A stretch of DNA of 64,000 nt from Candidatus Woesearchaeota archaeon (GCA_019322435.1 JAHWIR010000005.1:67443-131442); one strand, 5' to 3'; counted from the first letter of the stretch, positions 1 through 47,964 are shown. Made by a program: numbers and translations. Notes: generated by a model not told the origin, from the sequence alone.

Positions 1-3000
1 GATTGGCTTTGAAGGCCCTGCTTTGGACTGGTCATGCCTGCTGTCTGCTCCGTAGCAGTCGCATTTTTCAATAGGCATGTCATTTCCTTGTGGTTCAATC
101 TCGCATCTTGCTCCTGGGAAAGACAAATCGTAATTTGTTGCGCAGACAAGCTCTACAGAATAGCTATCTATCTCGCATCCTGGAGCAAGCATCCATGCAA
201 CATCATACTGGTATGTTGCTATCTCTGTATCAGGGTTCCATGTTATATATCTTCTGCTGGCTGGATATGCTCTTGCTGAGGTCTTGTAAGGAACTGAATA
301 AGCTGTATCCAGGAATGCATCAAAGTCCCAGCCCCAGTCTCCTGTAAGCGCTCCTAGGCAGATCTTTTTTGCAATTGCTCCCTGGCCAACTCCGATAAAG
401 TCTTCTAATGCAGAGCTTGGATACTGGTCAAGCAAGTCAGATGTTGTTCCTGCAACTGCGTCTCTGATTGTTGCTGCTCCTGCTCTTATTCTGTCAGTTG
501 TAACATTGCTTATCTTTGCTCCTGTCCATGGGGTACAGCCTTTTATTAGGCTTGTCAATATTTCAGCAATCCATTCGCAAAGGTATTGAGTAAAGAATTC
601 CTTGCACACTCCTGCATCTGCTTCTCCTGTTGCTTTTATCTGCTCAAGGCAGTTGTAAAGCCCCTGCAGTATGTTTCTTAATAATAATATCCTGTTTCTT
701 ATCTGTGTTGTGCAAAGGCACTGGAATGCAGGCACTGTATTGGATGGATCTAGATAAGCCTCTCCTGGAGAGATAAAGCTGTTTGCTCCAAAGCAGGCAG
801 ACTGGTCTCTTCCTTCGTAATAGACATATTTATTATAAGAATAACCTAGCTTATCATAACGATAATCCCAGAAGTCTTTTAAGTCTCCAGCACTGACTGT
901 CTTTTCTACTAGATCTAATGTATCTTGCGGCGGGTTAGCAAGGGTATTTTCTGGATCCTTTTTTGTGCAAAGGCATATTTCATCTCTATCTAAACACTCT
1001 TTTGCTGTTGTTATTACCCTGCTGAATGGCTGTTTTACTAATCCAGTTACAGGGTCTTTTTCTCCTGCGATGATTTTTGATGCTGTTGTAGAATCTTTGC
1101 ATCCGCTCTCTTTTTCTTCATAGCCTTCTCCTTTACATAATTTCTTGCATGTTACTGTTTCTTCTTTGGATAACTGCACTGTTCTTCCTTTTCCTACAAC
1201 CTCTATTTCTTTTTTAGATACAGGAGATATATCATCATCTATTTTTAAAATTACATTTTCTCCTTTTGCATCTGCTTTGTAAGTATAATAATCTCCTTTA
1301 TAGATCCAGCAAAGTGGTTTTTTTGAGGCTGTTTTTTCCTTGCATTCTTCTGCAGAAGGCCTCATCAGAATTAGTCCTTCTGTTCCTTCTGTTTTTGAGC
1401 ACAGTATGCTTCGTTCTATCCTGACTGCTACCTCTTCTGGTGATTTTCCAGATGTCCATGCTGCTGGAGCTGAGCTGCACAAGAACCTGTCGCAAGACCA
1501 TCTGAAGAATTTGTAAGCAGATGCTTCATAATTCCAGCCTTTGAATGCTGATTTACATCTCTCCTCCAGCTCTGTGTTGGTGAGATCATCCTGGGTCATG
1601 CCTTTTGTCAATTTGCCGTCAGGAGTAAGCTTGTGCTTTGGATTTGCTTTTCCAGATCCTGGTGGAGGGCATTTTGTTCCGTCATCATCCTTCATCACTT
1701 TATCTAATCTGTAATCTGCCCAGGATTTCCATGTTCTTATTCCTCTTGCTATTATTCTTACTGCAAAGCCTGCAAAGCAGGCGATTGCGCTGATTCGTAC
1801 AGCCTGGTTGATCTTATCGAGGTTTTCGTTTATCCTGTTTATTGTCTTGTTGAGGATTTCTGGGCCTTCTTCTATCAGCCAGTCAACAAGAGGAACATCT
1901 CTTGGGTCAATCCTGCTTGTGTCAATTGCAAAAGCCAATGTTCTGCAGGTTGTCTGGCCTTCTGTTATCTGCTCATCGTCTATCTTGTGGGAATAGGTAA
2001 TCTTTATTTTAAATGGGAAAAGGATTTCATCTTCAATATCTCCTGGCTTTATAGGCCATTCAAGGAACTCCTCCTCATAGTCTGATAATGCATTAAGGTT
2101 GTATACAAGATACCACATGTTTTTCCTATCATTTGAGATTCTTACATTTGGAGGATCTTGAAGTATTCTGCAGCTTATTTCATATTTTCCTTTTTTCATC
2201 ATATCTGCTTCACAGGCTTTTACAAACTCAACATCTATTATGCTTGCATTTGAGCCAAAGCCTTGGTAAGAGAGATTGAATACTGCTGAGATTATTCCAG
2301 TGCCTTGCTTTAGTGATGCTGGATTAAGCATGGATGGAGATTGGTGTTCGATTAAATTTGCTATATCCCAGTTTGCTCCTCCTGCATAGCATGTTCCTAT
2401 TGTATAGCTTATTTCTTCCTGAGCAGTGTGGCCTGCCTGGTCTGTTACAACAAAAGTAACTTTAATTGTTCTTGCTTCCTGCTCTTCCAGGATCTCAACT
2501 TCTTCTTCAAGTTCTTCTGGGGAAACGGGAATGTATTCTCCATTTAATTCTCCTTTTATAGTTATAGGTCCAAAAGAGATTCCTTCTAAATCAACATAAT
2601 CAAATTCAAAACGTCCTGTTGAGCTTGCCTGGCCTTTTAGATGAGGATTGCCGTCTGGAGCTTTGTTTATATATACTTCAACTTTTGCGAATGGCTCTGT
2701 ATTTCCGCTTATATCCACTTGTGTTGCTCCTTCATAGAAGAAGGTTGTGTCTGCTGGCTTTAGGTTTTTCAGTTCTGGAGCAGTTGTGTCAAGTGTTATT
2801 GAAGCTGATTCTTCATCAACATTGCCTGCCTGGTCAATTGCCTTTAATCTTATTGTATTTTCTCCTTCCACCAGATTTATGGTTATTTCAAAATCTTTTA
2901 TTCTTCCTCCTGAAACCAGCTCCTCATTCCTGTAGATTTCCAAGAAAGATGTTTCTGAGATTGTTCCTGAAACCACTATAGATGGGTCTGTTGTCATAGA

Positions 3001-3654
3001 AGGCAATGCGTCAAGTGTTATTTCAGGGATAGTCAAGTCAACTGTTGTTGTGAATGTTTTTTCAGTTGTAAGGCCTGCTGAGTCTGTTGCTGCCAATCTT
3101 ATCTCATTTGGCTGGAATGCTGTTAATTCAACATTAAGGAAATTAAATTCTCTTCTTTCTTTTGGGTTGAATGTCCTTCTTAGTATGCCGTTGATATAAA
3201 GCTCTAGTCTTGTAAGAGGTTCTGTTGTTCCTACAATATCTATTCTTGGGCTGTTTATGTATTGCGGAATGTCAACATCAATATGAGGGGGGGTTGTGTC
3301 TCTCTGAGGTGTTTGGAAAGCGTACATTCCTCCATTGTTGTCATCTTCTTCTGTGTCTGTGCTTGACACTGATTTTACTTTGTAATAATAAGTAGTAGAT
3401 GGAGCAAGATTGCCTATGAAGATTGAATGATTAAATATCCTCTCAATATTTGTTTCTACATCAGAAGGGGCTGCTCTGTCTGTGCCGTAGAAGACTCTTG
3501 AGTCAGCAGGCTCGTCTGTCTGCCATGTGATGACTGCAAAGCTGTCTGTTATGTCTTCTGCTTTGATGCCTGATATTTGCAGAGCAGAGACTAGCGGCAT
3601 TGTTATCATTAGCTGAATCATCACTAATGCTATGATTGCTGTTATTTTTCTCAT
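1..3654 (-). CDS. Large secreted fibronectin type III (FN3)-domain surface protein with a Cys-rich C-terminal region. The C-terminus is cut by the window edge (>=1218 aa in window).
   Basis: Open frame on the minus strand from ATG at 3654 to position 1 with no stop; it is absent from the ORF track because it has no in-window stop. The N-terminus MRKITAIIALVMIQLMITMPLVSA is a Sec signal peptide. It is followed by an FN3-like segment (ITWQTDEPADSRVFYG...YYYKVKSVS), and the region toward position 1 is rich in Cys. The ATG overlaps the stop of the upstream gene (ATGA). Confidence 0.6.
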   Translation of the reverse strand, partial: MRKITAIIALVMIQLMITMPLVSALQISGIKAEDITDSFAVITWQTDEPADSRVFYGTDRAAPSDVETNIERIFNHSIFIGNLAPSTTYYYKVKSVSSTDTEEDDNNGGMYAFQTPQRDTTPPHIDVDIPQYINSPRIDIVGTTEPLTRLELYINGILRRTFNPKERREFNFLNVELTAFQPNEIRLAATDSAGLTTEKTFTTTVDLTIPEITLDALPSMTTDPSIVVSGTISETSFLEIYRNEELVSGGRIKDFEITINLVEGENTIRLKAIDQAGNVDEESASITLDTTAPELKNLKPADTTFFYEGATQVDISGNTEPFAKVEVYINKAPDGNPHLKGQASSTGRFEFDYVDLEGISFGPITIKGELNGEYIPVSPEELEEEVEILEEQEARTIKVTFVVTDQAGHTAQEEISYTIGTCYAGGANWDIANLIEHQSPSMLNPASLKQGTGIISAVFNLSYQGFGSNASIIDVEFVKACEADMMKKGKYEISCRILQDPPNVRISNDRKNMWYLVYNLNALSDYEEEFLEWPIKPGDIEDEILFPFKIKITYSHKIDDEQITEGQTTCRTLAFAIDTSRIDPRDVPLVDWLIEEGPEILNKTINRINENLDKINQAVRISAIACFAGFAVRIIARGIRTWKSWADYRLDKVMKDDDGTKCPPPGSGKANPKHKLTPDGKLTKGMTQDDLTNTELEERCKSAFKGWNYEASAYKFFRWSCDRFLCSSAPAAWTSGKSPEEVAVRIERSILCSKTEGTEGLILMRPSAEECKEKTASKKPLCWIYKGDYYTYKADAKGENVILKIDDDISPVSKKEIEVVGKGRTVQLSKEETVTCKKLCKGEGYEEKESGCKDSTTASKIIAGEKDPVTGLVKQPFSRVITTAKECLDRDEICLCTKKDPENTLANPPQDTLDLVEKTVSAGDLKDFWDYRYDKLGYSYNKYVYYEGRDQSACFGANSFISPGEAYLDPSNTVPAFQCLCTTQIRNRILLLRNILQGLYNCLEQIKATGEADAGVCKEFFTQYLCEWIAEILTSLIKGCTPWTGAKISNVTTDRIRAGAATIRDAVAGTTSDLLDQYPSSALEDFIGVGQGAIAKKICLGALTGDWGWDFDAFLDTAYSVPYKTSARAYPASRRYITWNPDTEIATYQYDVAWMLAPGCEIDSYSVELVCATNYDLSFPGARCEIEPQGNDMPIEKCDCYGADSRHDQSKAGPSKPI

Positions 3655-5552
3655 CTTATCAGTTCTGGAGTAGGCACTAATTTTGATTTTTTCTCAATAT
3701 TAGTTAGATATTGAAGCTGTTTTTCCTCATCTCTTGAGAATGGGAATTCAACAACATGGAATTTTATTTGTTTTGCTCTTCTTAAATCATTCCAGGCAGG
3801 TGTCCATTTTCCCATATATCCTCCGTATATTCCCCTGTCATCTGCCAAGTAAGCCTCAATCTCATATTCATAATCCCATTTTGCATGGAATTTTAGCTGG
3901 GATAGGATTTCTTCTTCTGAAGGATAGATTGCTGAGCTTTGCAGGCCTTTTCTTTTGATTGTTATTATGACTGACTGGTCATCATCCAGTGACTCTTCCT
4001 GCCTGACCAAATCTGAGTCAAGGAAGGCTTTGTGCTTTACAAAAGTGATATCTTTGAGTATTGTTGGAGTTAAGTAAATATCAACTGTCTTTTCTTTATC
4101 AGTTGTTGCAAAGACAAAGTTTTCTTCATAGCCTTGTTTTGTTCCTCTTACAACTCCGTTTACGCAGACTGGGAACAGCTCCTGGATAAATGCATCTTCA
4201 ATGCCGTGGAATTTTCTTTCAGTTACACCCATTGGGCAGTTGAATCTGATGCATGTAAAGGAGATATTAACACCTGGAAGCTCTTCATAGAAGTTAATGT
4301 CTGGTGTTGAAACGTTTTCCCATGACCTTACTTTTATAAGGGTTGTTGCTTCTTCTGCGCAGAACTCTTCTGAGGATGCTCTTTGCTGGAAGTCAAACTC
4401 TGTTATGCCAAAGCTTGTCTTATCCGGCTCATTGTGGTTGATGCTGACTTCGAATGCAAAGTTGAAGGTGTATTGGTTGTGGTTTCTGGCTGCATCGTCT
4501 GTTATTGTTACCATAACTGGATATTTTACATCATAGGTAAAGTGCCACATGTGTATGCAAAGGAAAGACATGAGGTCAGCGCTTCTTTGTGCATTTGATT
4601 TTAGGAATGTTCCTTGATTTGGCCTTATCTGCAGCTCAATAGGCCATGTTGGATCATAGTTGAGGTTGACATGCGTGTTTCTGTAGTTCAGGTCTGTTAC
4701 TGTCCAGATATAGTGGTTCTGGACATAAGGCCTTGTATCTGGAATATCTAAGTAATCTGTTTTTTCAATCCTTATTGAAGGAAGATTATAATGGAGCAGG
4801 TCTTTTATCCTTGCTTCTACATCATCAACATACCATATCTTTGGAGAGCAGGTGAATTCCATGTCTGTGTAAGGGACTCTTGGGTCTAAAGCAATAAGGT
4901 CTATTGTCCTTTCTTCCAAGAATTTATCATCTAGCTCCTGGAGCACTATCTCTTTTGCAAGCTCATATACTGTCTTTAATCTGACTGGAACATCTCCTAC
5001 AAACTGGTTTATCCTTGTTACCTTTTGTTCGGCTTTTGAAGTGAATTCCAATGGGTAATCAAGAGTGACTTTGACTGATTCGTCTGTCAGGTCAACGGTG
5101 ATAGCTCTTGGAGCCAGTTCCTGGATAGTGAACTGGTTTTGGAATGGTTCTAGGTTGCTGAGGCATTCATCAAGGTTTTGATCAATGTAATGGGCAAGGT
5201 CTTCCTTCATATAATCCTCAGAAGGATATCTTGTCTGGCCTCTGAAATGCCAGAGAGGGACCTTTATTGAAGGGAACAAGGGACTTCCTCCAAGATATGA
5301 CCTTTGGTCAGAACTTATTTCATCAGGGAACCTGATGAAGCCTCCATTAGCACCTAGAATATTAACTCCGTCTGTTGCTATATTATTAATGCAATCACTA
5401 ACAAAAGTATCAATTGGTTTCAGCTCGGGCGGGACAACGCGCTCTGGTGTAAATACTGTTGTTGCTTGTCTTAAATAAAGGAATAAACCTATTCCAAGAA
5501 GCAGAACTATACCTAAGATGATGAAAAGTGTTATCTGTCCTTTCTTTCTCAT
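3651..5552 (-). CDS. Surface protein with a prepilin-like (class III) signal-peptide N-terminus. Paralogue of 11511-13610.
   Basis: 633-aa ORF whose ATG (5552) overlaps the upstream stop in an ATGA. The N-terminus MRKKGQITLFIILGIVLLLGIGLFLYL has a [KR]G-Q cleavage-like motif followed by a hydrophobic helix. It shares the VxDCI....G..LG..GG[FY]I block with the 11511-13610 protein. Confidence 0.6.
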   Translation of the reverse strand: MRKKGQITLFIILGIVLLLGIGLFLYLRQATTVFTPERVVPPELKPIDTFVSDCINNIATDGVNILGANGGFIRFPDEISSDQRSYLGGSPLFPSIKVPLWHFRGQTRYPSEDYMKEDLAHYIDQNLDECLSNLEPFQNQFTIQELAPRAITVDLTDESVKVTLDYPLEFTSKAEQKVTRINQFVGDVPVRLKTVYELAKEIVLQELDDKFLEERTIDLIALDPRVPYTDMEFTCSPKIWYVDDVEARIKDLLHYNLPSIRIEKTDYLDIPDTRPYVQNHYIWTVTDLNYRNTHVNLNYDPTWPIELQIRPNQGTFLKSNAQRSADLMSFLCIHMWHFTYDVKYPVMVTITDDAARNHNQYTFNFAFEVSINHNEPDKTSFGITEFDFQQRASSEEFCAEEATTLIKVRSWENVSTPDINFYEELPGVNISFTCIRFNCPMGVTERKFHGIEDAFIQELFPVCVNGVVRGTKQGYEENFVFATTDKEKTVDIYLTPTILKDITFVKHKAFLDSDLVRQEESLDDDQSVIITIKRKGLQSSAIYPSEEEILSQLKFHAKWDYEYEIEAYLADDRGIYGGYMGKWTPAWNDLRRAKQIKFHVVEFPFSRDEEKQLQYLTNIEKKSKLVPTPELIR

Positions 5553-6295
5553 TTTATTTTTTCAACTTCTGATACAAAATATATCCTTGCCCATGCCATG
5601 TAAGCTGCATAGAGCAGGACAGAGATTATCAGTATCTGCGGTGCTAATGTGCTTAATAGTCTTATTATGTAGCCTGCTGCTAGTATCAGGATTCCTGGTA
5701 TTAACAGTTTTGGGATGTTTTTTGCTCCGAATTCCAAGGCATTTCCAATTGACTCAAAAACCTTGTTTGTTTTTGTTAGTTTTATGAAGATCAATGCTAT
5801 GAAATATATCAGTGCAGTTAATAATATTGTAGATGCGTACATCAATGCAATTATCTTTGTTTTTAATAATCCTGAGATGAAAAGCAAGATTGGGATTAAG
5901 ATGACTGCAAGAAACAGATTTAATCCAATAAGTTTTTTGAAGTATTTTTTTGTGAATTTCTTTTTCAGCAAAGTTGAATATATCATCCCTCTTGTGAAAG
6001 ACCAGGATAATAATAAGATTACTGCTAAAAGTATTCCAACTATTATTGTTGTGAACATTAATGTGTTTACATCTGCCATTAAGAGCTTTAGCTGGTCTGG
6101 TGTTATCTGAGCCATTGCTTCTTGGGTTAAGGACTCTGGACTGATCTTTGAGCCTTGTTTTGTGATTATTTTTCCTGCAAGATAGGTTGAAGGATAGACT
6201 ATTGCATAGAATAATAGGTCATAGAAGATTATCTGTATGAAATTGAACTTTAGCTTGAATGATTCTATAAATTGCTTTAGCTGTTTTTTAATCAT
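5549..6295 (-). CDS. Polytopic integral membrane protein, hypothetical.
   Basis: 248-aa ORF with 6-7 hydrophobic helices. It overlaps both neighbours by 4-8 bp and sits inside the surface-protein operon. Confidence 0.5.
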   Translation of the reverse strand: MIKKQLKQFIESFKLKFNFIQIIFYDLLFYAIVYPSTYLAGKIITKQGSKISPESLTQEAMAQITPDQLKLLMADVNTLMFTTIIVGILLAVILLLSWSFTRGMIYSTLLKKKFTKKYFKKLIGLNLFLAVILIPILLFISGLLKTKIIALMYASTILLTALIYFIALIFIKLTKTNKVFESIGNALEFGAKNIPKLLIPGILILAAGYIIRLLSTLAPQILIISVLLYAAYMAWARIYFVSEVEKIK

Positions 6296-8477
6296 ATTTT
6301 GGTATTGAAGTGCAAAAATATCTTTTGTTCTCTAATTCATTTTCAAACTCACTGAATGTTCCTCTTTGTATGAGATGTATGCATGCTTTGCTGAATTTTG
6401 TTTCATTGTAGATAAAGAGCATGCCAGGGCCTGCTGCTGACCATGATCCTCCTGGTTTTCTTGTTACATCCTCTTCTAGCAATTCAAGATAGGTTATTCC
6501 TTTTCTCAGCTCTATATTGAATACTGTGTCTTCTGCGCCTTCTTTGAAAGCAGGAGCTACATAAGCAGATACTTTATAGATATATTGTGTTGTGCCATCA
6601 GGCAGGATTACTTTTGAGCTTACTTTTGCCTCGATATGGGCTGCTGCTTTTTTCAATCCACCTGGTGTGTCTACAAACACTGTTCCTTTTGCATCTGGGT
6701 CCATGTCAAACCATCTTCCGCAGATCTCTGATTTCCAGTATTCTATATCCAGGCCAAGCTTTGCAAAGAACTTGTCCATATCTTCTCTCCATTTTGCCCA
6801 GTTCTCTGCTTTTGGCAGCAGGTTTGAGAAAGATCCTAGGTCGTATCTTCCTAATTGTGCCAGCTTTTGTCCTTCTGCTGACAGATAATTGATAATATCA
6901 AAGGTTAAACTTACTGTATATGCTGCATGATTCCTGTGTTGGCCTTGGTCTTTTAGTTTCTGTATAAGATCAGGATCTCCTCTAAACATAGGAGGATCTA
7001 ATGTTTTTCCGTTCTCATCTACAAAGACTACAGATGCTGACTTGTCTTTTTCTTTGATTACATACTCCCATGGTTCTCCTGAGTTCCGGTTTTTTAAATC
7101 TATATCATATGTATCAGGTTTTTGTTTTCCTGTTTCTTTGTCCACTTTATAGATTCTTTCAGCACTTATCGGTGTACCATCACTATCAAAGTTCATGATA
7201 TGATTAACTATTTGTCTTTCTAGTTTTGGATTTCCTTCTTTATCTTTTTCCTTTGTCTTTATATCCTGATATTCGATTGTTGTTGTGAACCAGTCTCCTT
7301 TGATAACTTCTTTATATGGTTCTCCTTTTTTGAAATCAGATTGTGTTATTCTTGCTTCTTCTTCTGCAACAATATCTTCAACAGTATCTTTGTATTGTTT
7401 TGCAATAACCATTCCATCTTTATCTTGAACTTCTAAAACACCTTCTTTTATGACTGGGTTTTTTACACCATCAATATTCTTTAGAGCATCTACTAAATCT
7501 TGATATCCTGCACGGGTTGTTGTATATTCCTTACGATCTGTATCTCTAATTAATACATTGTCTAATTTTTCTTTAGTAATTGGGTCAACTTGTATGAATA
7601 TGTCTGCATTTTTGTCAAATATTGCATCCCTTTTTGTCTGCTTTATATAAAGTTCAGGCGGATTCTTAACTAGTGCATTATTTTTGTAATAATAATAATC
7701 TCCTCCTCTCTCATAGACTGGCTTGCCAGTCCCGTCAACAAAGCTGGTAGGTTTATAGTTGGTTCCTGCAAGCCTTTTTGCATCGCTTACTTCAAGTTTA
7801 AAAATCTTTTTTCTTCCATCTAACACAGCATTTTCTCCAACAAGGGTTTCAACCCGTTTTCCATTTATTAACAGCCAGTATGCTTGACCTCCTGCCATTG
7901 GCCTTAATTCATATTTTTTAGGAGAGATTACTGCTACTTCTTTTGTTACTTCTTTAACAGAAACTAATTTGTAATCGGTTCCTTCTGCATCCTTTTTTAA
8001 TTGGGCTTCAAATTCTTCTTTTGAATCTTTAATGTTAGAATAAGTATCAGTAAATTTATCTTTTTCGTCTTTAACATTTTGATAAACTGCTTCGAATACA
8101 GTTGTTTTTTCTCTAGGCAGCTGTTTGGTTTCAATTCCAGTGTCAGTTACTAAAGTGTATTCCCCTTCTTTAGTTAGGATTCCTGCTGCTGTTTCTATTG
8201 AAGAATATTCTGTAATACCCCATGCAAGTGAATTTCTATTCCAAAAATATACCCTTTCTTTTTCTTTTTTAACATGGACAAGGCTTTCGTATTTATCATC
8301 AAGAGTAGGATCTTCTTTCTTGGTTGTGATAATATAACCTGTTGAACCTTCTGGTTTAACTTTTCCCTCAAGAACCAATTGTCTGAAAGCTGGATCTTTT
8401 TCGATTTGAGATAATATAGGAGGAATTACAACTAACAAAAACATCAACATTATTCCAATCAATATTTTCTTATTCAT
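6288..8477 (-). CDS. Large secreted protein, hypothetical.
   Basis: 729-aa ORF with N-terminal signal peptide MNKKILIGIMLMFLLVVIPPILSQ. It is K/E/T-rich and overlaps the downstream gene start by 8 bp. Confidence 0.55.
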   Translation of the reverse strand: MNKKILIGIMLMFLLVVIPPILSQIEKDPAFRQLVLEGKVKPEGSTGYIITTKKEDPTLDDKYESLVHVKKEKERVYFWNRNSLAWGITEYSSIETAAGILTKEGEYTLVTDTGIETKQLPREKTTVFEAVYQNVKDEKDKFTDTYSNIKDSKEEFEAQLKKDAEGTDYKLVSVKEVTKEVAVISPKKYELRPMAGGQAYWLLINGKRVETLVGENAVLDGRKKIFKLEVSDAKRLAGTNYKPTSFVDGTGKPVYERGGDYYYYKNNALVKNPPELYIKQTKRDAIFDKNADIFIQVDPITKEKLDNVLIRDTDRKEYTTTRAGYQDLVDALKNIDGVKNPVIKEGVLEVQDKDGMVIAKQYKDTVEDIVAEEEARITQSDFKKGEPYKEVIKGDWFTTTIEYQDIKTKEKDKEGNPKLERQIVNHIMNFDSDGTPISAERIYKVDKETGKQKPDTYDIDLKNRNSGEPWEYVIKEKDKSASVVFVDENGKTLDPPMFRGDPDLIQKLKDQGQHRNHAAYTVSLTFDIINYLSAEGQKLAQLGRYDLGSFSNLLPKAENWAKWREDMDKFFAKLGLDIEYWKSEICGRWFDMDPDAKGTVFVDTPGGLKKAAAHIEAKVSSKVILPDGTTQYIYKVSAYVAPAFKEGAEDTVFNIELRKGITYLELLEEDVTRKPGGSWSAAGPGMLFIYNETKFSKACIHLIQRGTFSEFENELENKRYFCTSIPKYD

Positions 8478-11400
8478 TTTAATAGCTTTTCTGCTGTTTT
8501 GCAGTAATCTTCTCCTGCTGTGTAGATATAGTTATCTGGCTCAAGGATTCCTACTACATCTTCGTATAGCTCAATTCCCATTATGAGTAACTCATATATT
8601 CTACATGCTGCGTTTCTTTTACGATTGGTTGCACAAAGATATAAACAAACAGCCTCTATACTGACTCCTATGACTGTCAATGGCTCTGATAGTGCTTGTT
8701 TTACTGAATTGATAATATTAGAGAATACGGCTGTTATTGGGCATGCATTAAACAATTCTCCTACAAGATATTTGCATATTTCATAGTGTTTTAATTCATC
8801 GCAGGCATGGGTTGAGACTCCTGTGTTGGCAGATCCTTTTAAGCAGATTATGTGCCTGCATCCTATCTGCCTGTATCTCTCAGCTGCAGCTAAGATTCCA
8901 GGGATGCAGAGTGTTGCAACAGCAACAAAAAGATTGTCTTTTGCATTCAGGTATTCATTTGGGTCTTTTGCTTTGTCTTTTGCTCCTCCAAACCATCTGT
9001 TTGCAATATCTCCACCGCATAAATTTAATATCCAATTTCCCGTTTCTTGCCATCCTCCAACAACACCCCAGGCTCCTTTTTCTTTTTCTGGGTCAGGGGA
9101 TAACCTGCAGTTCCAGAATTTGCAGAATTTTGTTACTTCTCCATACATGCCTTCCTTCGTTTCACCAACAAACTCCTCTGTCATGCATGCTGCTATAGAT
9201 ACTGCTTTTCCTGGTGCTCCTATGTCATCAACAGCTAATTTAACTGTACCTATTATTACTTCTAGATCCTGGAGAGCAAGTATCGCATCGCATATCTGCT
9301 CTGCCAAGCCCATATAATTTCTCCATTTGTCAATGTCTGCCCACCAAGAATCAATAAACTCATCTTTTGATTTTTTTATCTTCTCCTTGATTTCTGAACT
9401 TGCTTCTCCAAGGCGGTTTGAGTAGAGCGGGACAGCTATCTCTATAATTTCCTCTTCTATATAGGATAATTGGTTATTGTAAAGGGAAACAAGCTCGATT
9501 GTGCAGTTGAATTTCAATGGAGAATCTTTGATTGGATAGTCAGCATCGTCAAACTGGAATACAAGATAAGGATTGGTTGTTCCTCTTCCATTGTTGAATA
9601 TTCCTTCTCCCTCTACAAAAGTTTCGTAGTCGTCTCCTGTGCATTCCCTGATGCTGATGTCAACTATCTCTGCTTCTGAGTCAGTGCTTAAATCAACAAC
9701 TGCATAGACTCTTGGCTCAACTATCATAGCCAGCTGCGTGTCAATGCCTTTTGACGGCTGGATATTAACAGAATCAACTGTCCAGTAATCTGGATATTCA
9801 TCGTCTTCTAATGCAAATATTTCAATGGATTTATCTGCAGTGTCAAAGTTTCCAGCTGAATCAAGAATCTTGATATCCATTGTTGTGTTTACATAGCCTG
9901 ATTTAATAGAAGGGATATTCCAGTAGCATTGGAATTCATTTCCTGTTTTAGTGCACTCTGTTGCTGGAAGCTCATCTGCATCAATATGGTCATAGACTCC
10001 TGAGAAATTTCCTATAGCTCTTATTCCTGCTTCATCTGTTCCCTGTACAACAACAGCTAATGAATCATGGGAAACTGCAACGCCTTCTGGTCTTTGTGTT
10101 TCTTCAAATGCAACCCATTCAACAGAATCTATGATAGGATCTTGGGTGTCAACAATAATGTTTGCAGAGGTTGTTCCTGTTGCTATGTTTCCTGCATTAT
10201 CCCTGGCTGTTACAATAAATACACTAAGAGAGCTTCCATGGGATTTTGTGGTTGTTAGGTTATGCCATCTGCATGTCCATGTGCTTCCAGCCTGGTCGCA
10301 TCTGTCTGCTTTTACATCGTTTCCATAATCTGGATTTATCAAAGACAGGTAAAGGGATATCTGGCTGCTTGAGATTCCAGAGCCTGTTTCAGTAAGCTTA
10401 ACAATTATGTCAACTGGCTTGTCTCCGATATAGCTTTTGCCTTCAAAAGCATAATCTGTTCCAATAAAGGTTATCTCAGGAGCATCTGTATCAATGTTGA
10501 AGTCTCTTGTTACAAGTGCTGGAGCTGCTTGATTGCCGTATGCATCTGTTGCATGGAAGAAAAGATGAGCTGTTTTTCCAGCAGATATGTCAACATTTAC
10601 ATCGCTCCATGTGCAGGTTATATAGAATCCATCTTCAATGCAGTCAGTGGTTGTTATATCTGAGCCTGCTCCTATATCTGACAGATCAGCTCTTGCTTCA
10701 AGATTCTGAACAGTATCGTCTTCTATCTTTATCTTGATGACTGCCTTAAAAGGCTCGCCTGGAGCTGAGTTTCCAATAGGGATTCCATCTTTAAGAAGCT
10801 CAAAGGAATTTGGAAGTATTATTGGAGGATTGTTGTCATGGATAAAGCCTGTTATTGTCTCTGATGCAACAAAACCCATCCTGTCATATGCTTTTATCAG
10901 TATTGTATCTGAGTAAGAAAGTGAGACAATTGTTGTATTGGAAAAAATGCATTGTTCTGGAGAGTCAATAATTATTTCATGCAGTAATCTAGAGCCGTCC
11001 AGGAATTCTATTCTTGATATTCCAGAGCATCTTGTAAATTCATTTTCATTTGCCCTGTCTGTTACTTTAAGAGGGATTATAACTTCCTGCAGGTCCTGGA
11101 CAACATCTCCTGTCAGTGTTATTTCAGGAGCAAGGTTGTCAATTGTCATGTCTTTTTCAACTGTCTTTAACACAACTCCTGTATCTGAATGAAGTGTGAA
11201 TGTTGCTGGATATGTGCTAATAGGCAGTGTATAATATTCTCCTGTATAAGTGCATGTGAAGAGATTGCCTGCTGTTCTTGTGCATTCCTGGAATGGAAAT
11301 TCTTTATTTATCTTTACTTGGTTAGGTGTTATTTCAGAATCACCATCAACTTCTGCATTTGCTACAAGAAACCATCTGTCATATTCTTCAAAATAGCCGT

Positions 11401-11518
11401 TCACATCCTTGTCTCCGCTGTATTTGGTCATCTCAAAGGTTGTTGCTGCATAAGCTATAGGGAGAGATAGGATTAGCAAAATCATTACAATGGCTTGTGT
11501 TATTATTGTCTTATTCAT
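8474..11518 (-). CDS. Large secreted protein with a Cys-rich C-terminal domain, hypothetical.
   Basis: The ORF track starts at a TTG (11530). An in-frame ATG at 11518 (MNKTIITQAIVMILLILSLPIAYA, a signal peptide) is the more likely start and overlaps the upstream stop. The C-terminal ~300 aa carry >20 Cys. Confidence 0.55.
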   Translation of the reverse strand: MNKTIITQAIVMILLILSLPIAYAATTFEMTKYSGDKDVNGYFEEYDRWFLVANAEVDGDSEITPNQVKINKEFPFQECTRTAGNLFTCTYTGEYYTLPISTYPATFTLHSDTGVVLKTVEKDMTIDNLAPEITLTGDVVQDLQEVIIPLKVTDRANENEFTRCSGISRIEFLDGSRLLHEIIIDSPEQCIFSNTTIVSLSYSDTILIKAYDRMGFVASETITGFIHDNNPPIILPNSFELLKDGIPIGNSAPGEPFKAVIKIKIEDDTVQNLEARADLSDIGAGSDITTTDCIEDGFYITCTWSDVNVDISAGKTAHLFFHATDAYGNQAAPALVTRDFNIDTDAPEITFIGTDYAFEGKSYIGDKPVDIIVKLTETGSGISSSQISLYLSLINPDYGNDVKADRCDQAGSTWTCRWHNLTTTKSHGSSLSVFIVTARDNAGNIATGTTSANIIVDTQDPIIDSVEWVAFEETQRPEGVAVSHDSLAVVVQGTDEAGIRAIGNFSGVYDHIDADELPATECTKTGNEFQCYWNIPSIKSGYVNTTMDIKILDSAGNFDTADKSIEIFALEDDEYPDYWTVDSVNIQPSKGIDTQLAMIVEPRVYAVVDLSTDSEAEIVDISIRECTGDDYETFVEGEGIFNNGRGTTNPYLVFQFDDADYPIKDSPLKFNCTIELVSLYNNQLSYIEEEIIEIAVPLYSNRLGEASSEIKEKIKKSKDEFIDSWWADIDKWRNYMGLAEQICDAILALQDLEVIIGTVKLAVDDIGAPGKAVSIAACMTEEFVGETKEGMYGEVTKFCKFWNCRLSPDPEKEKGAWGVVGGWQETGNWILNLCGGDIANRWFGGAKDKAKDPNEYLNAKDNLFVAVATLCIPGILAAAERYRQIGCRHIICLKGSANTGVSTHACDELKHYEICKYLVGELFNACPITAVFSNIINSVKQALSEPLTVIGVSIEAVCLYLCATNRKRNAACRIYELLIMGIELYEDVVGILEPDNYIYTAGEDYCKTAEKLLK

Positions 11519-13610
11519 ATTCTGGCTCAATATGTTTTCTGAATTTTGCTGAAAGTTTTTCTATGTTAGGCACAGCTTCTTCTACTTTTCTTGGAAGGTT
11601 AGGGCTTATCACATAGAATATGATTTCCTTGCTTTCATAGAGGTCTTTAGGAGTTACTTCAAGAGGTCCTGTCTTTTCATTTAAGATTGCTCCTCCTGAA
11701 GGATATTCATCGAATACAACTTTTGGAATAGTGTACTCTTTCTTTGCGCCTAATTGCCGTGAAATCCAATCTGCTCCTGTGCTTCTTTTGTCTTTAGGAA
11801 TCACAACTTTTTGCTTGAGTATTACATTGCCAGTTAGTTCATAGGTTCCTGGAACTATTCTTTGCAGTACAGAAGGCTCTGTTTGGTTTCCCTTGAACTG
11901 CACTGCTGAGACTAACTCTGGATCTCCTGGTGTGCTTGGGATTCTTTCAAAGCCCAAGATGGCTATTTCTTTCTCTCTAAGAGGTATTGGCTGATCACTT
12001 AGTTTATTGCTCCTGATTGTGTATGGAAGGCTTTTTACTGTTATGTTTATATTAGCATAAGGATATGCTTGTGTTACAACAAATTCATTTCTGCCTATTC
12101 TTGTTGTTAGTGGTTTTGCAGGGATAAAATAATCATTATGTATAAAGGAAACAACACCCCCTAAACAGCCAGGAAGTTTTGTGGTTAATTCTCCGTTTTC
12201 ATCTGTCATTCCTGTGAAACAGCTCTCTTCTCCGCAAGTATATGTAACCTGGACTTTTGATATTCCTTTTGCAGGATCTAATGCATCTTCTATTTTGATG
12301 CTTATATCTCCGCTGTTTCTCAAGTCAAAATCACAGAACTGTGTTCCTGTAGGAACAAAGGATGTTTCATAGCCAGGGAAGTCTGCCACAATAGGCTGGT
12401 TGTTTCTTACATTGCCTTCCAATGCAAACTTAAAAGAATAGCCTCTTCTGTCAAATGCATAGGGGTCTGATATGTCAACAACAGTAGGGAAGGATATATC
12501 ATAGCTAAAGGAATACCTCTGGACCCCCACTAATGTAAGCAAGGGGTTGTTCATCTTTTCTGGCTCGCATATGTCGCCTTTGCAGTCAAGGTCAAAGTAG
12601 ATTGGCCACCATCCAAGATAGTCAAAGGTTGTTCCGAAATCATTGTATTTTTTATCATAGTTTAGAGGGACGTCCATTGCATAGAAAGCTGTTTTTACAT
12701 CATCTCCTGCAATGATTCTTGGGTCATGGTTTAGTGTGAAGGGGATTTGCAAGGCTCCTGTATAAGTCATCAAAAGGGACTGCACATCTTGTTTTACTAT
12801 TGTCTTTGACCAGATTGTGCCTCCTGCAAAATTAAATTCCATATCTGTCTTTGGAGGCAGAGCATCTGAGTCAGTAGAGGCAAATGCTGAGATAACATTT
12901 AGGATCTGGTTCTCAAGGAAATTGTATTCTACTTGTGTGTTTGTTATTTCTGTGGCAAAGTTGTAGATTCTTTTGAATTCAACTGGAAGGGATACATAGA
13001 AATCCTCAATCCTGTGGGAAATGTCTCCTCTTTTTATTTCAACAGGATAATTGACAAAGATGCTGATATCAAAATCTTCGATTCTGACTGTAGCTGATGC
13101 AGGGCTTTCTTGTATTTCAAAGCCCTGCTCTATAAATGATTCATAGTTCAAGCAGGAGATTAGTTTTTTATTGATATAATCCTTTGCCTGGGATTCAATC
13201 ATGGTTAAAGAAGGTCTCATGGAGCTGAAAGAGCAGTCTCCTGTGCATTTGTTTGGAGACTTAAGAAAATGCCAGTAAGGGATTGCCATATCTGAGCCTA
13301 GAGAGAATTTAAGGCCTTCTGCTTCTGTTGGATTGATAGAGCTTGTTACAATGCCGTAATCAGATGGGTTTATGTATCCGCCGCGGTCACCTATCTTTCT
13401 GAAGGCATCTTCTGATATTGCATAGATGCAGTCTTCAATAAAAAGCCTTACAGGCCTTACTTCAGAAGGTATCTCTGTTATTGCTGGAATTGCTTCTGGC
13501 TCTAGCTCTTTTTCAACTACAATTGAACGGATGTATAAGAAAGATGCGAATAACAACAGAATTACTATCCCTAGTATTATATATAGAGTTATCTGCCCTC
13601 TTTTTTCCAC
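11511..13610 (-). CDS. Surface protein with a prepilin-like (class III) N-terminus. Paralogue of 3651-5552, first gene of the operon.
   Basis: The ORF-track start (13625) is a TTG. A GTG at 13610, preceded by GAGGGGA 6-7 nt upstream, gives the N-terminus M-EKRGQITLYIILGIVILLL, which parallels MRKKGQITLFIILGIV of the paralogue. A TATA box (TTTATAAAGGG on the minus strand) lies about 40 bp upstream. Confidence 0.55.
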   Translation of the reverse strand: MEKRGQITLYIILGIVILLLFASFLYIRSIVVEKELEPEAIPAITEIPSEVRPVRLFIEDCIYAISEDAFRKIGDRGGYINPSDYGIVTSSINPTEAEGLKFSLGSDMAIPYWHFLKSPNKCTGDCSFSSMRPSLTMIESQAKDYINKKLISCLNYESFIEQGFEIQESPASATVRIEDFDISIFVNYPVEIKRGDISHRIEDFYVSLPVEFKRIYNFATEITNTQVEYNFLENQILNVISAFASTDSDALPPKTDMEFNFAGGTIWSKTIVKQDVQSLLMTYTGALQIPFTLNHDPRIIAGDDVKTAFYAMDVPLNYDKKYNDFGTTFDYLGWWPIYFDLDCKGDICEPEKMNNPLLTLVGVQRYSFSYDISFPTVVDISDPYAFDRRGYSFKFALEGNVRNNQPIVADFPGYETSFVPTGTQFCDFDLRNSGDISIKIEDALDPAKGISKVQVTYTCGEESCFTGMTDENGELTTKLPGCLGGVVSFIHNDYFIPAKPLTTRIGRNEFVVTQAYPYANINITVKSLPYTIRSNKLSDQPIPLREKEIAILGFERIPSTPGDPELVSAVQFKGNQTEPSVLQRIVPGTYELTGNVILKQKVVIPKDKRSTGADWISRQLGAKKEYTIPKVVFDEYPSGGAILNEKTGPLEVTPKDLYESKEIIFYVISPNLPRKVEEAVPNIEKLSAKFRKHIEPEYE

Positions 13611-13706
13611 TATTGTTCCCCTCAAGGTAAAAATATCTATTTACCCTTTATAAACTTTGCGATAAATTGAGATGGAAATTATGATACTCATATCATTTTG
13701 GGTAAA

Positions 13707-13741
13707 TTTTTTCTCCCCTTAACTTTCGTGGGGAGAAAAAA
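13707..13741. promoter_or_regulatory. Perfect 12-bp-stem hairpin (TTTTTTCTCCCC-N11-GGGGAGAAAAAA) in the divergent promoter region between the surface-protein operon and 13824.
   Basis: Read directly from the sequence. Flanked by TATA boxes facing both directions. Confidence 0.5.
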
Positions 13742-13823: not shown

Positions 13824-14657
13824 ATGGCATTAAGATTAGAACCTTATGTTAGAAAGCAGTTGGCTGCTGGTTATGATATTAAGACAATTAGGGATTTTCT
13901 TATAAGAAGCGGTTATGATGTAAGGGATATTAATAAAGCGATTGATGCTGTTTATAAGAAAAAGCCTAGAAAACCAATTCCATTAAAAGGTGTTCTTGTT
14001 GCTGTGCTGATTATTGTTGTCTTGATTGCAGGGATATTGTTCATCTTCAACATAATGGGGGAGGAAGAGGTTGTTGAGACAGTCACTTTTGCCTATGAAA
14101 GAGAAGTAGAGGAAGTAAAGCCTTTGGTTAAAGAAGAGATTCCAGGAGGGGCTGTTGTTGTTGTGGAAGAGATAACATGCCCTGACAGCTGCGATGACAA
14201 GGATGCATGCACTATAGATTACTGCGGAAAGGAAACAAGCTATGTATGTGTTAATCAAAGAGTAAGGCCTTGCTGCGGAAATGATATCTGCGAAGGCGGA
14301 GAAACAAGTGATAATTGCAGGGCTGACTGCAAAGAAGTTGAAGTGTATATTGCTCCTGCTGCTGCAGAATCACTGACTGATGTTGTGCTGGAAGCAAAGG
14401 AACTGGCAAAGGCAAGTCCAGGCAGTGCTGCCAGCTACTGTTCAAGGCAGACAAAGCAGAATGTAAAAGACAGCTGCTATAAAGCTGTTGCTGAGAGTGC
14501 AAAGCAAAGCGTGTATTGCGATGAGATTGTATCTGAGCTAAAAGCTGACAGCTGCTATGTGACTGCTGCAACAGAATGGAATGATTTTAGTGTTTGCGCA
14601 AAAATAAATGACAAATATCTGCAATTAGCCTGCAATAATTTGGCTGAAGCTAGTTAA
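13824..14657 (+). CDS. Membrane-anchored protein with an extracellular paired-Cys repeat domain, hypothetical.
   Basis: 277-aa ORF with one TM helix (VLVAVLIIVVLIAGILFIF). The C-terminal repeats follow the pattern S.C..I......SCY...A and end in ACNNLAEAS. A TATA box (TTTTATATA, 13793-13801) about 25 bp upstream suggests a leaderless transcript. Confidence 0.5.
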   Translation: MALRLEPYVRKQLAAGYDIKTIRDFLIRSGYDVRDINKAIDAVYKKKPRKPIPLKGVLVAVLIIVVLIAGILFIFNIMGEEEVVETVTFAYEREVEEVKPLVKEEIPGGAVVVVEEITCPDSCDDKDACTIDYCGKETSYVCVNQRVRPCCGNDICEGGETSDNCRADCKEVEVYIAPAAAESLTDVVLEAKELAKASPGSAASYCSRQTKQNVKDSCYKAVAESAKQSVYCDEIVSELKADSCYVTAATEWNDFSVCAKINDKYLQLACNNLAEAS

Positions 14658-47291: not shown

Positions 47292-47294
47292 ATT

Positions 47295-47909: not shown

Positions 47910-47964
47910 ATTAATGTGTTAATTGAAGTAATATATAAACATGAGGTGAATTTGCGTAGCTTGT

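What the first reader, a model, noticed from the sequence alone, without database searches (positions are those of the whole stretch)
3651..5552. Two large paralogues begin with archaeal class III (type IV prepilin-like) signal peptides
MRKKGQ|ITLFIILGIVLLLGIGLFLYL (5552) and, after start reassignment to GTG 13610, MEKRGQ|ITLYIILGIVILLLFASFLY (13610). Both have a basic stretch, then G-Q, then about 20 hydrophobic residues. That is the architecture cleaved by the prepilin peptidases PibD/FlaK/EppA in archaeal pilins and archaellins. They sit on 600-700-aa proteins rather than ~150-aa pilins. Both proteins also share the downstream block V.DCI......G...LG..GG[FY]I. Pilin-like N-termini on very large proteins would suggest minor-pilin or tip-adhesin roles, or a Sec-independent membrane insertion route.
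Basis: partly seen in the sequence, partly recalled or inferred. Interest (0 to 1): 0.6.

Follow-up and report, generated by a model that had tools for sequence, protein, structure and literature searches.

The report
Pilin-type signal peptides on large surface proteins
Two large paralogous surface proteins of a tiny symbiotic-type archaeon (Woesearchaeota) start with a strictly conserved pilin-type signal, and each is encoded just upstream of a giant secreted protein in a gene cluster found across the whole lineage, which suggests an undescribed cell-surface apparatus rather than an ordinary pilus.

Summary
ORF 3651-5552(-) starts MRKKG|QITLFIILG. ORF 11511-13610(-) starts MEKRG|QITLYIILG. 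The two are true paralogues (28% identity, E=5e-36).

The N-terminus is not a chance hydrophobic stretch. Essentially every full-length homologue has [KR]-[G/A/S]-Q, an invariant Phe at +5, and about 22 uncharged residues, after a leader of 3-39 residues. This covers 109 database proteins and about 100 genes from GTDB genomes. The segment is the second most conserved 11-residue stretch of the protein. The site is identical to experimentally defined EppA-type pilin cleavage sites (KGQI, KGQV), except that +5 is Phe rather than Glu.

Cleavage, and a prepilin peptidase in this genome, could not be tested. One paper reports flaK, flaI and flaJ in most of its Woesearchaeota MAGs.

Neither protein lies in a pilus locus. 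They belong to a translationally coupled operon conserved across Woesearchaeales. Each paralogue is followed, usually with a 4-nt overlap, by a giant Sec-secreted, anchorless, Cys-rich Ig-domain protein.

Best reading: these are prepilin-type, N-terminally anchored partners that tether the giants. The "Sec-independent" idea is unsupported. Large class III proteins are already known (the bindosome).

I rate it a new variant of a known kind, of moderate interest.

The parts
3651..5552 (-). 633-aa paralogue (NCBI KY332_01565). Layout: class III-like N-terminus, orphan alpha/beta ectodomain (residues ~42-395), then C-terminal beta-sandwich domains (~400-633).
   Evidence: ORF. 100% match to P0001. 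AF2 model has pLDDT 92.6. No Pfam or NCBIfam family.
5535..5552 (-). Leader and predicted prepilin-peptidase site, MRKKG|Q (residues 1-6).
   Evidence: Sequence. Family logo. EppA-type sites.
5472..5537 (-). Hydrophobic H-domain / mature N-terminal helix, QITLFIILGIVLLLGIGLFLYL (residues 6-27).
   Evidence: No charged residue in 22 positions. AF2 helix spans residues 4-32. Residues 4-14 carry 3.19 bits against a protein mean of 2.0.
11511..13610 (-). 699-aa paralogue from GTG 13610 (NCBI KY332_01585 is annotated from TTG 13625, 704 aa).
13593..13610 (-). Leader and predicted cleavage site, MEKRG|Q.
13530..13595 (-). Hydrophobic H-domain, QITLYIILGIVILLLFASFLYI (residues 6-27).
   Evidence: Its 699-type orthologues all carry [GAS]Q followed by at least 18 uncharged residues (19 of 19).
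13618..13623 (-). Shine-Dalgarno-like GAGGGG, 7 nt upstream of GTG 13610.
   Evidence: Read directly.
13649..13656 (-). TATA-like box TTTATAAA, the likely operon promoter.
   Evidence: Read directly. Its role as promoter is inferred.
8474..11518 (-). About 1014-aa giant partner of the 699-aa paralogue. It has a Sec-type signal (..PIAYA|A), Ig-like domains and a Cys-rich C-terminal part (27 Cys), with no C-terminal membrane anchor. The probable start is ATG 11518, which overlaps the upstream stop by 8 nt.
   Evidence: A 699-type gene is followed by a 1018-type gene in 27 of 31 loci, median gap -4 nt.
6288..8477 (-). 729-aa secreted protein, a conserved cluster member.
   Evidence: None of 33 orthologues has a C-terminal membrane-spanning segment.
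5549..6295 (-). 248-aa polytopic membrane protein, a conserved cluster member. A second paralogue usually follows the large giant.
   Evidence: It has no Pfam match and no invariant Asp, so it is not an A24-type peptidase.
1..3654 (-). Giant partner of the 633-aa paralogue (more than 1218 aa in the window; orthologues are 1600-2300 aa). It has a Sec-type signal, fn3/Big_13/Glucodextran_B-like domains and a Cys-rich region. Its ATG overlaps the 633-aa stop (ATGA).
   Evidence: A 633-type gene is followed by this giant in 77 of 82 loci, median gap -4 nt. Only 1 of 54 orthologues has a C-terminal membrane-spanning segment.
13824..14657 (+). Divergently transcribed 277-aa Cys-rich single-pass membrane protein. 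It recurs next to the cluster in 5 other loci.

Best explanation
The two paralogues are cell-surface proteins with a prepilin-type (class III) signal peptide.

Proposed mechanism:
1. The basic leader and hydrophobic stretch direct SRP/Sec insertion, with the N-terminus inside and the C-terminus outside (established for prepilins; inferred here).
2. An A24-family prepilin peptidase of the FlaK/PibD/EppA type cuts between Gly5 and Gln6, at KG|Q and RG|Q (inferred from the motif; not shown).
3. The roughly 22-residue hydrophobic helix stays at the mature N-terminus. It holds the 600-700-aa ectodomain in the membrane, or in a short pilin-like bundle (inferred).
4. Each paralogue is made in fixed ratio with the giant, anchorless, Sec-secreted Ig-domain/Cys-rich protein encoded immediately downstream. 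It acts as that giant's membrane tether (inferred from operon structure). Together with a 729-aa secreted protein and two polytopic membrane proteins, these form a lineage-wide Woesearchaeal envelope or adhesion complex.

Shown here: the motif, its conservation, paralogy, synteny, gene overlaps, and the lack of anchors on the giants.
For: Motif:
- Both N-termini match the FlaFind rule and are identical to EppA-type sites.
- Of 109 homologues, 98 match [KR][GAS]Q plus a hydrophobic stretch. Seven of the remaining eleven are gene calls truncated at the N-terminus, and only one full-length protein lacks Gln at +1.
- In an independent GTDB set, 19 of 19 699-type genes and 77 of 82 633-type genes carry [GAS]Q followed by at least 18 uncharged residues. 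Phe at +5 is present in all 64 that could be assessed.
- Leader length varies from 3 to 39 residues while the site stays fixed to the start of the hydrophobic domain.
- Residues 4-14 form the second most conserved 11-residue stretch (3.19 bits against a mean of 2.0).
- The mature N-terminal 11 residues are 64% identical between paralogues of the same genome, whereas the window's two paralogues are 28% identical overall.
- G, A and S all occur at -1, and G and A both occur within single genomes. This is consistent with my recollection that prepilin peptidases tolerate small residues at -1; FlaFind itself allows only G or A.

Context:
- The cluster order is conserved across 85 loci: 699-type, 1018-type, 729-type, membrane protein, 633-type, giant, membrane protein.
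- A 633-type gene is followed by its giant in 77 of 82 loci, and a 699-type gene by its giant in 27 of 31. The median gap is -4 nt in both cases.
- The giants have N-terminal signals but almost never a C-terminal membrane anchor: 1 of 54, 0 of 32 and 0 of 33 for the three secreted families.
- The two giant families share a homologous N-terminal region (hhalign probability 97.7%). This is consistent with a duplicated anchor-plus-giant module.

Lineage:
- flaB, flaH, flaI, flaJ and flaK were detected in most Woesearchaeota MAGs of one study (PMC11606122).
- An Epd-like type IV filament system is reported in some DPANN archaea.

Structure:
- The AF2 model shows helix 4-32, a linker, then a confident ectodomain.
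- The whole-protein model has Foldseek matches to tandem beta-sandwich surface proteins (a TIE adhesin, E=1e-8; the S-layer anchor SlaB, E=3e-6). The separate model of residues 36-400 has no match, so these matches are inferred to come from the C-terminal half.
Against: - No cleavage data exist.
- No A24 peptidase, pilus ATPase or platform gene lies in the 64-kb window or within about 10 kb of the family in 85 loci.
- I could not examine the rest of this genome.
- One paper states that type IV pilus components are missing in DPANN genomes.
- Profile libraries do not recognise the N-termini. Pfam Class_IIIsignal scores E=3.4, Tad E=0.097, and TIGR04205 E=0.017, all below threshold.
- EppA substrates have Glu at +5, whereas this family has invariant Phe. 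M. maripaludis FlaK does not cut substrates with Gln at +1.
- In the AF2 model the N-terminal helix is separated from the globular part by a Pro-rich linker. It is not continuous with it, as I recall it is in classical pilins.
- The tethering of the giants rests only on gene order and the absence of anchors.
Confidence: 0.55

Rival explanations
1. The N-terminus is an uncleaved type II signal anchor. In this reading the conserved [KR][GAS]Q..F motif and helix sequence are kept for packing inside the membrane, for example against the two conserved polytopic membrane proteins of the cluster, and not for a peptidase.
For: - No peptidase or pilus genes lie nearby.
- Two paralogous roughly 250-280-aa polytopic membrane proteins always accompany the two anchored paralogues.
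- Profile models of class III signals do not score the N-termini significantly.
- Phe at +5 differs from the Glu of EppA substrates.
- One paper reports type IV pilus components missing in DPANN genomes.
Against: - In my experience signal anchors conserve hydrophobicity rather than sequence. Here a small residue followed by an invariant Gln sits exactly at the cytoplasmic edge of the helix and is always preceded by K or R, whatever the leader length.
- The four-residue site equals experimentally confirmed cleavage sites.
- FlaK is reported in most Woesearchaeota MAGs of one study.
Confidence: 0.25
2. The proteins are genuine filament subunits. They would be cleaved and then polymerised by a type IV filament machine encoded elsewhere (for example FlaI/FlaJ or an Epd-like system), acting as minor pilins or tip adaptors that carry the giants as tip adhesins. 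This would resemble bacterial minor pilins with PilY1, or a bindosome-like structure.
For: - The signal evidence is the same as for the best explanation.
- Large non-pilin adhesins encoded next to pilins are described for archaeal Epd-like loci (PMC4858521).
- Bindosome subunits use a type IV filament base encoded elsewhere.
- flaI and flaJ are reported in most Woesearchaeota MAGs of one study.
Against: - No ATPase, platform or small major pilin was seen in any of the 85 neighbourhoods.
- The ectodomain is more than 600 aa, and a Pro-rich linker separates the helix from the globular part.
- The cluster is single-copy and syntenic like a housekeeping envelope module.
Confidence: 0.15
3. The N-terminus is an ordinary Sec signal peptide removed by signal peptidase I after the hydrophobic region, which would release soluble proteins.
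For: The N-terminus has a basic region followed by a hydrophobic stretch.
Against: - The hydrophobic stretch is about 22 residues, which I judge too long for a typical Sec signal peptide.
- No conserved small-x-small site follows it. Positions +19 to +25 are mostly Y/F and then Q/R/K.
- The giants in the same operon do have typical AYA|A and VSA|L sites.
Confidence: 0.03

Closest known systems
EppA-processed Epd pilins of Methanococcus maripaludis (class III signal peptides with Gln at +1)
   Same: The processing site is identical in form: K/R at -2, G/A at -1, Gln at +1, I/V at +2 (EpdA-E: RAQI, KGQV, KGQV, KGQL, KGQI). Both have a short basic leader and a hydrophobic domain of about 20 residues.
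   Different: - Position +5 is invariant Phe here, not Glu.
- The proteins are 630-700 aa, much larger than typical pilins.
- There is no significant match to Pfam Class_IIIsignal (PF04021).
- They do not lie in an Epd/type IV filament locus.
Sulfolobus bindosome substrate-binding proteins (GlcS, AraS and others) and the wider set of class III binding proteins
   Same: Both are large non-pilin ectodomains (at least four times pilin size) behind a typical class III site. Both are encoded away from the filament machinery, next to their functional partners.
   Different: - The ectodomain here is not a substrate-binding fold. It has no Pfam match, and its N-terminal part has no PDB match by Foldseek.
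- The neighbours are giant surface proteins, not ABC transporters.
Two-component archaeal S-layer SlaA/SlaB (Sulfolobales)
   Same: A smaller membrane-anchored subunit is encoded next to a giant anchorless subunit. The whole-protein model also has a Foldseek match to SlaB (8qox_B, E=3e-6).
   Different: - The anchor is N-terminal and pilin-like here. As I recall, SlaB is anchored by a C-terminal membrane helix.
- TM-scores are low (0.14-0.19), as for generic beta-sandwich similarity.
- There is no evidence of a lattice.
Bacterial type IV pilus minor pilins with the PilY1 tip adhesin; PilY-like large proteins in archaeal Epd-like loci
   Same: A pilin-type protein is encoded next to a large Sec-secreted non-pilin surface protein.
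   Different: No DUF2341/PilY domain was detected. There is no pilus assembly locus nearby.

Membership tests
Archaeal class III (prepilin-type) signal peptide proteins (FlaFind definition) | [KRDE][GA][ALIFQMVED][ILMVTAS]x3 motif close to the N-terminus | tested here: met
   K-G-Q-I-T-L and R-G-Q-I-T-L. 84 of 109 homologues match the strict pattern, and 98 of 109 match when Ser is allowed at -1.
Archaeal class III (prepilin-type) signal peptide proteins (FlaFind definition) | Hydrophobic H-domain of about 20 residues directly after the site | tested here: met
   22 uncharged residues in both proteins. AF2 helix spans residues 4-32. 96 of 101 GTDB orthologues have at least 18 uncharged residues after [GAS]Q.
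Archaeal class III (prepilin-type) signal peptide proteins (FlaFind definition) | Leader removed by an A24 prepilin peptidase (PibD/FlaK/EppA) | not testable with these tools
   This needs N-terminal proteomics or a cleavage assay.
Archaeal class III (prepilin-type) signal peptide proteins (FlaFind definition) | A24-family peptidase encoded in the same genome | tested here: inconclusive
   - None in the 64-kb window or the 85 related loci.
- The FlaK-seeded search returned only Methanococcales-type relatives.
- The literature disagrees: flaK in most Woesearchaeota MAGs of one study, against type IV pilus components missing in DPANN.
Archaeal class III (prepilin-type) signal peptide proteins (FlaFind definition) | Recognised by curated N-terminal models (Pfam PF04021 Class_IIIsignal, PF07790; NCBIfam class III models) | tested here: not met
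   The best scores are below threshold: PF04021 E=3.4, PF13400 Tad E=0.097, TIGR04205 E=0.017.
EppA-type substrates | Gln at +1 | tested here: met
   Gln follows the small residue in all but one full-length homologue (P0095, KGI). The requirement is described in PMC4371748.
EppA-type substrates | Glu at +5 | tested here: not met
   Phe at +5 in 97 of 98 homologues and in 64 of 64 GTDB orthologues that could be assessed.
Type IV pilins / type IV filament subunits | Encoded with, or dependent on, a PilB/FlaI-type ATPase and a PilC/FlaJ/TadC platform | tested here: not met
   Co-location is not met: no such genes lie within about 10 kb in 85 loci. Dependence on machinery encoded elsewhere cannot be tested here.
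Type IV pilins / type IV filament subunits | Long N-terminal helix whose C-terminal half packs onto the globular beta-sheet domain | tested here: inconclusive
   The AF2 model shows helix 4-32, a Pro-rich break at 33-41, then helix 42-68 inside the ectodomain. Foldseek finds no type IV pilin match.
Bindosome-type substrate-binding proteins | Substrate-binding protein fold and adjacent ABC transporter genes | tested here: not met
   No substrate-binding Pfam family. The neighbours are giants and membrane proteins.
Internal thioester (TIE) adhesins | Conserved Cys-Gln pair forming a thioester within a thioester domain | tested here: not met
   The invariant residues include Cys but no ectodomain Gln. 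The model of residues 36-400 does not match 6fwv. The 6fwv match of the full model is attributed to the beta-sandwich part.
SlaB-like S-layer anchor | Beta-sandwich stalk plus membrane anchor, paired with a giant lattice subunit | tested here: inconclusive
   Foldseek match to 8qox_B at E=3e-6 but TM-score only 0.14-0.19. The operon pairing with an anchorless giant is present. The anchor is at the opposite end of the protein, and lattice formation is unknown.

The most novel reading that the evidence does not exclude
The operon encodes a previously undescribed, lineage-wide envelope or host-attachment apparatus of Woesearchaeales. Two duplicated modules each pair a prepilin-processed, pilin-helix-anchored protein that has an orphan-fold ectodomain with a 1000-2300-aa anchorless Cys-rich giant. 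The apparatus could be the Woesearchaeal S-layer or a contact organelle. The pilin-type helices would bundle or be handled by the archaellum-type peptidase and machinery, without a dedicated pilus locus.
Probability: 0.25. Interest if true: 0.75.

Novelty: new variant of a known kind. Interest (0 to 1): 0.5.

Why it matters
No described Woesearchaeal S-layer or attachment structure turned up in the papers I searched, and a 2018 review notes that DPANN S-layers had not been analysed. This finding gives a concrete, conserved set of candidate genes. A scan of one genome per GTDB species found 446 stretches encoding relatives. It also makes a directly testable prediction: cleavage at [GAS]|Q. If the prepilin-type processing is confirmed, it would extend the bindosome principle, in which large non-pilin proteins borrow the pilin signal, to DPANN archaea and to a new ectodomain with no detectable structural relative. 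If it is not confirmed, the family is still an unusually sequence-conserved signal anchor whose partner needs explaining.

Tried and rejected
1. Searching the 5.8-billion-protein database with a profile of the N-terminal 42 residues, to find other families carrying the same signal. Only 4 fragments were returned. The exhaustive HMMER search gave 3146 hits, but the top 150 were family members or their contig-end fragments. The question stays open.
2. Looking for a Woesearchaeal prepilin peptidase with M. maripaludis FlaK as probe (sequence verified against PDB 3S0X). Only Methanococcales-type relatives came back, and nothing in the window or the fetched loci. This does not test for absence.
3. 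Extending beyond the window. Only short Logan contigs were retrievable.
4. The 248-aa membrane protein as a hidden peptidase. Rejected: it has no GxGD motif, no invariant Asp, and no Pfam match.
5. A thioester (TIE) domain, suggested by the top Foldseek hit 6fwv. Rejected: there is no conserved Gln partner, and the N-domain-only model does not match it.
6. Co-variation of the -1 residue between paralogues of one genome. Not significant (9 of 18 the same, permutation p=0.08).
8. Supplementary tables of the two most relevant papers are not held.


Full report
WHAT IS THERE

The window comes from a Candidatus Woesearchaeota (DPANN) genome. The 633-aa protein is identical to NCBI KY332_01565, on a 139,878-bp contig. 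The minus strand from about 13,656 down past position 1 carries one tightly packed operon:
- a 699-aa protein (11511-13610)
- a roughly 1014-aa protein (8474-11518)
- a 729-aa protein (6288-8477)
- a 248-aa polytopic membrane protein (5549-6295)
- a 633-aa protein (3651-5552)
- a giant protein that runs off the window (1-3654, more than 1218 aa)

Successive genes overlap by 4 or 8 nt. The junction between the 248-aa and 633-aa genes, for example, reads ATGA. Upstream of the first gene lie a TTTATAAA box and a GAGGGG motif 7 nt before GTG 13610.

CHECK OF THE OBSERVATION

The two proteins are paralogues, with 28% identity over 516 aa and E=5e-36. The shared block around V.DCI...GG[FY]I is conserved across the family.

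The start-codon question is minor. NCBI uses TTG 13625 (704 aa), and another gene caller uses GTG 13610 (699 aa). With either start the basic leader precedes RG-Q, and family leaders range from 3 to 39 residues.

A six-frame scan of the window with a FlaFind-like rule gives four hits. Only two lie at an ORF N-terminus, and they are these two proteins. The others are an internal membrane-spanning segment of the 277-aa protein and a spurious short frame.

IS IT MORE THAN A HYDROPHOBIC N-TERMINUS?

Yes.
- The 633-aa protein has 109 database homologues, and nearly all that carry a name are labelled Woesearchaeota or Nanoarchaeota. None has a Pfam domain.
- Aligned on the Gln, 98 of 109 match [KR][GAS]Q plus a hydrophobic stretch. 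Seven of the other eleven are gene calls that start inside the helix. Of the rest, one has a long N-terminal extension, two differ only at -2 (EGQ, SGQ), and a single protein has Ile in place of Gln.
- Position +5 is Phe in 97 of 98, +3 is Thr/Ser/Ala, and +9 is Gly/Ala/Ser.
- An independent set came from one genome per GTDB species. It contains 446 stretches encoding relatives, of which the best 80 loci were fetched. In that set, [GAS]Q followed by at least 18 uncharged residues occurs in 19 of 19 complete 699-type genes and in 77 of 82 633-type genes. Phe at +5 occurs in all 64 that could be assessed.
- Residues 4-14 are the second most conserved 11-residue stretch of the protein (3.19 bits against a mean of 2.0).
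- The mature N-terminal 11 residues are 64% identical between paralogues of one genome. The window's two paralogues are 28% identical overall.

A plain signal anchor would be expected to conserve hydrophobicity only. Here a small residue plus an invariant Gln sits at the cytoplasmic edge of the helix and is always preceded by Lys or Arg, whatever the leader length. That is the signature of a processing site.

COMPARISON WITH KNOWN SITES

The M. maripaludis pilins EpdA-E have the sites RAQI, KGQV, KGQV, KGQL and KGQI. Gln at +1 was confirmed by mass spectrometry, and EppA requires it. FlaK of that species does not cut substrates with Gln at +1, and EppA substrates also have Glu at +5 (PMC4371748). 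The window sites KGQI and RGQI are therefore EppA-like at -2 to +2, but they differ at +5 (Phe).

Curated profile models do not recognise the N-termini. Pfam Class_IIIsignal scores E=3.4, Tad E=0.097, and TIGR04205 E=0.017.

THE PEPTIDASE QUESTION

I could not settle this.
- Neither the window nor about 1.3 Mb of related loci holds an A24 peptidase, a T2SSE-type ATPase or a platform protein.
- A FlaK-seeded search of the large database returned only Methanococcales-type relatives, because of how that tool collects candidates.
- The rest of the MAG was not retrievable.
- The literature disagrees. A 2024 study found flaB, flaH, flaI, flaJ and flaK in most of its Woesearchaeota MAGs, with archaellin among the most expressed genes (PMC11606122). 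A 2026 preprint places Epd-like "System 1" in some DPANN. A 2020 preprint states that type IV pilus components are missing in DPANN genomes.

I take this as lineage-level support for a class III peptidase. It is not proof for this genome.

WHAT THE PROTEINS ARE

AlphaFold2 with an 82-sequence alignment gives a confident model (pLDDT 92.6). It shows helix 4-32, a Pro-rich linker, an alpha/beta region from about residue 42 to 395, then beta-sandwich domains to the C-terminus.

Foldseek against the PDB matches the whole model only weakly. The hits are tandem beta-sandwich surface proteins: a B. anthracis TIE adhesin (E=1e-8), the S-layer anchor SlaB (E=3e-6), and a carboxypeptidase regulatory-like domain.

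A separate model of residues 36-400 (pLDDT 93, pTM 0.88) has no significant match in the PDB (best E=0.019) or among viral models. The membrane-proximal domain therefore has no detectable structural relative by Foldseek. More sensitive libraries were unavailable.

Eight to ten Cys per paralogue, several of them invariant, fit an extracellular location.

THE CONTEXT IS THE MAIN NEW RESULT

Across 85 loci the gene order recurs: 699-type, 1018-type, 729-type, a roughly 250-aa membrane protein, 633-type, a giant of 1600-2300 aa, and a roughly 275-aa membrane protein.
- A 633-type gene is followed by the giant in 77 of 82 cases, and a 699-type gene by the 1018-type protein in 27 of 31. The median gap is -4 nt in both.
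- The two giant families share a homologous N-terminal signal-plus-Ig region (hhalign probability 97.7%). The operon therefore looks like a duplicated anchor-plus-giant module.
- Some genomes have a third, shorter paralogue with the same N-terminus.
- The giants and the 729-type proteins have Sec-type signals but essentially never a C-terminal membrane anchor (1 of 54, 0 of 32, 0 of 33).
- The membrane proteins form one family with two copies per cluster. They have no Pfam match and no conserved Asp, so they are not the missing peptidase.

MECHANISM

I commit to the following.
1. The paralogues are SRP/Sec-inserted.
2. They are trimmed at [GAS]|Q by an A24 peptidase encoded elsewhere.
3. They are then retained by their N-terminal hydrophobic helix.
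4. Each serves as the membrane tether for the anchorless giant that is co-translated with it.

Whether the helices stay as single membrane anchors or bundle into a short pilin-like stalk, as in the Sulfolobus bindosome, cannot be told from sequence.

Shown here: the motif, its conservation, paralogy, synteny, gene overlaps, the lack of anchors on the giants, and the fold predictions. Inferred: cleavage, tethering and function.

The main rival is an uncleaved signal anchor whose sequence is conserved for packing against the cluster's polytopic membrane proteins (about 0.25). A true minor-pilin or tip-adhesin role in a filament built by machinery encoded elsewhere is possible (about 0.15).

NOVELTY

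Class III signals on proteins several times pilin size are established. Examples are the bindosome subunits, the 4364 predicted class III binding proteins, and the large FlaFind-positive proteins in Haloferax. That part of the finding is not new in kind.

What is new:
- an unannotated, lineage-wide family with its own variant of the site (Gln +1, Phe +5)
- an ectodomain without detectable structural relatives
- a fixed partnership with giant secreted proteins in a conserved Woesearchaeal operon

My literature searches found no description of this cluster. A 2018 review notes that S-layers of DPANN had not been analysed.

Noticed in passing
window 57979..58773 (-): A 264-aa protein with a full GGDEF diguanylate cyclase domain (Pfam E=9e-31) behind a coiled-coil repeat. 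As I recall, c-di-GMP signalling is unusual in archaea, particularly in a DPANN genome.
   Followed up: no
window 26885..32734 (+): A 1949-aa secreted protein with repeated Cys-rich modules, beta-propeller repeats matching the Vgb_lyase family (E=9e-31), a MopE-like metal-binding motif and a C-terminal CARDB domain. This is a second giant surface protein, unrelated to the operon studied.
   Followed up: partly
window 13710..13735 (intergenic, between the operon and the divergent 277-aa gene): A perfect G+C-rich inverted repeat, TCTCCCC-N12-GGGGAGA, sits in a divergent promoter region where no terminator is expected. It could be an operator or a structured RNA.
   Followed up: no
loci L020, L022, L023, L025, L029, L035, L037 (729-type orthologues): In one clade the 729-type protein starts with a long basic leader followed by KG|[LI][VA]S[LF].. 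and a hydrophobic stretch. This resembles a PibD-type class III site without Gln. The window's 729-aa protein lacks it.
   Followed up: no
window 13824..14657 (+) and loci L006, L017, L027, L052, L069: A Cys-rich single-pass membrane protein (16 Cys, with a Dicty_CTDC-like repeat) is transcribed divergently from the operon. It recurs at the same position in five other genomes, so it may belong to the system.
   Followed up: partly
window 15356..16843 (-) and locus L002 3515..5806: Methionyl-tRNA synthetase lies next to the cluster both in the window (identified by eye from its sequence) and in a distant relative (identified by tRNA-synthetase Pfam families). This hints at old synteny.
   Followed up: no
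protein P0239 (88 aa): A short protein carries the same N-terminus (MKKRGQVTIFIIIG...) fused to the C-terminal box of a type I signal peptidase (VLGDNRNNSSDSR). It may be a chimeric gene call, or a hint that the signal occurs on other families.
   Followed up: no
window 44728..49416 (-): Four consecutive minus-strand genes. One is a 672-aa protein with a split xylose-isomerase-like TIM barrel (E=6e-18). It is flanked by a 204-aa and a 483-aa protein with no significant Pfam match, and by a 189-aa protein that was not searched.
   Followed up: no
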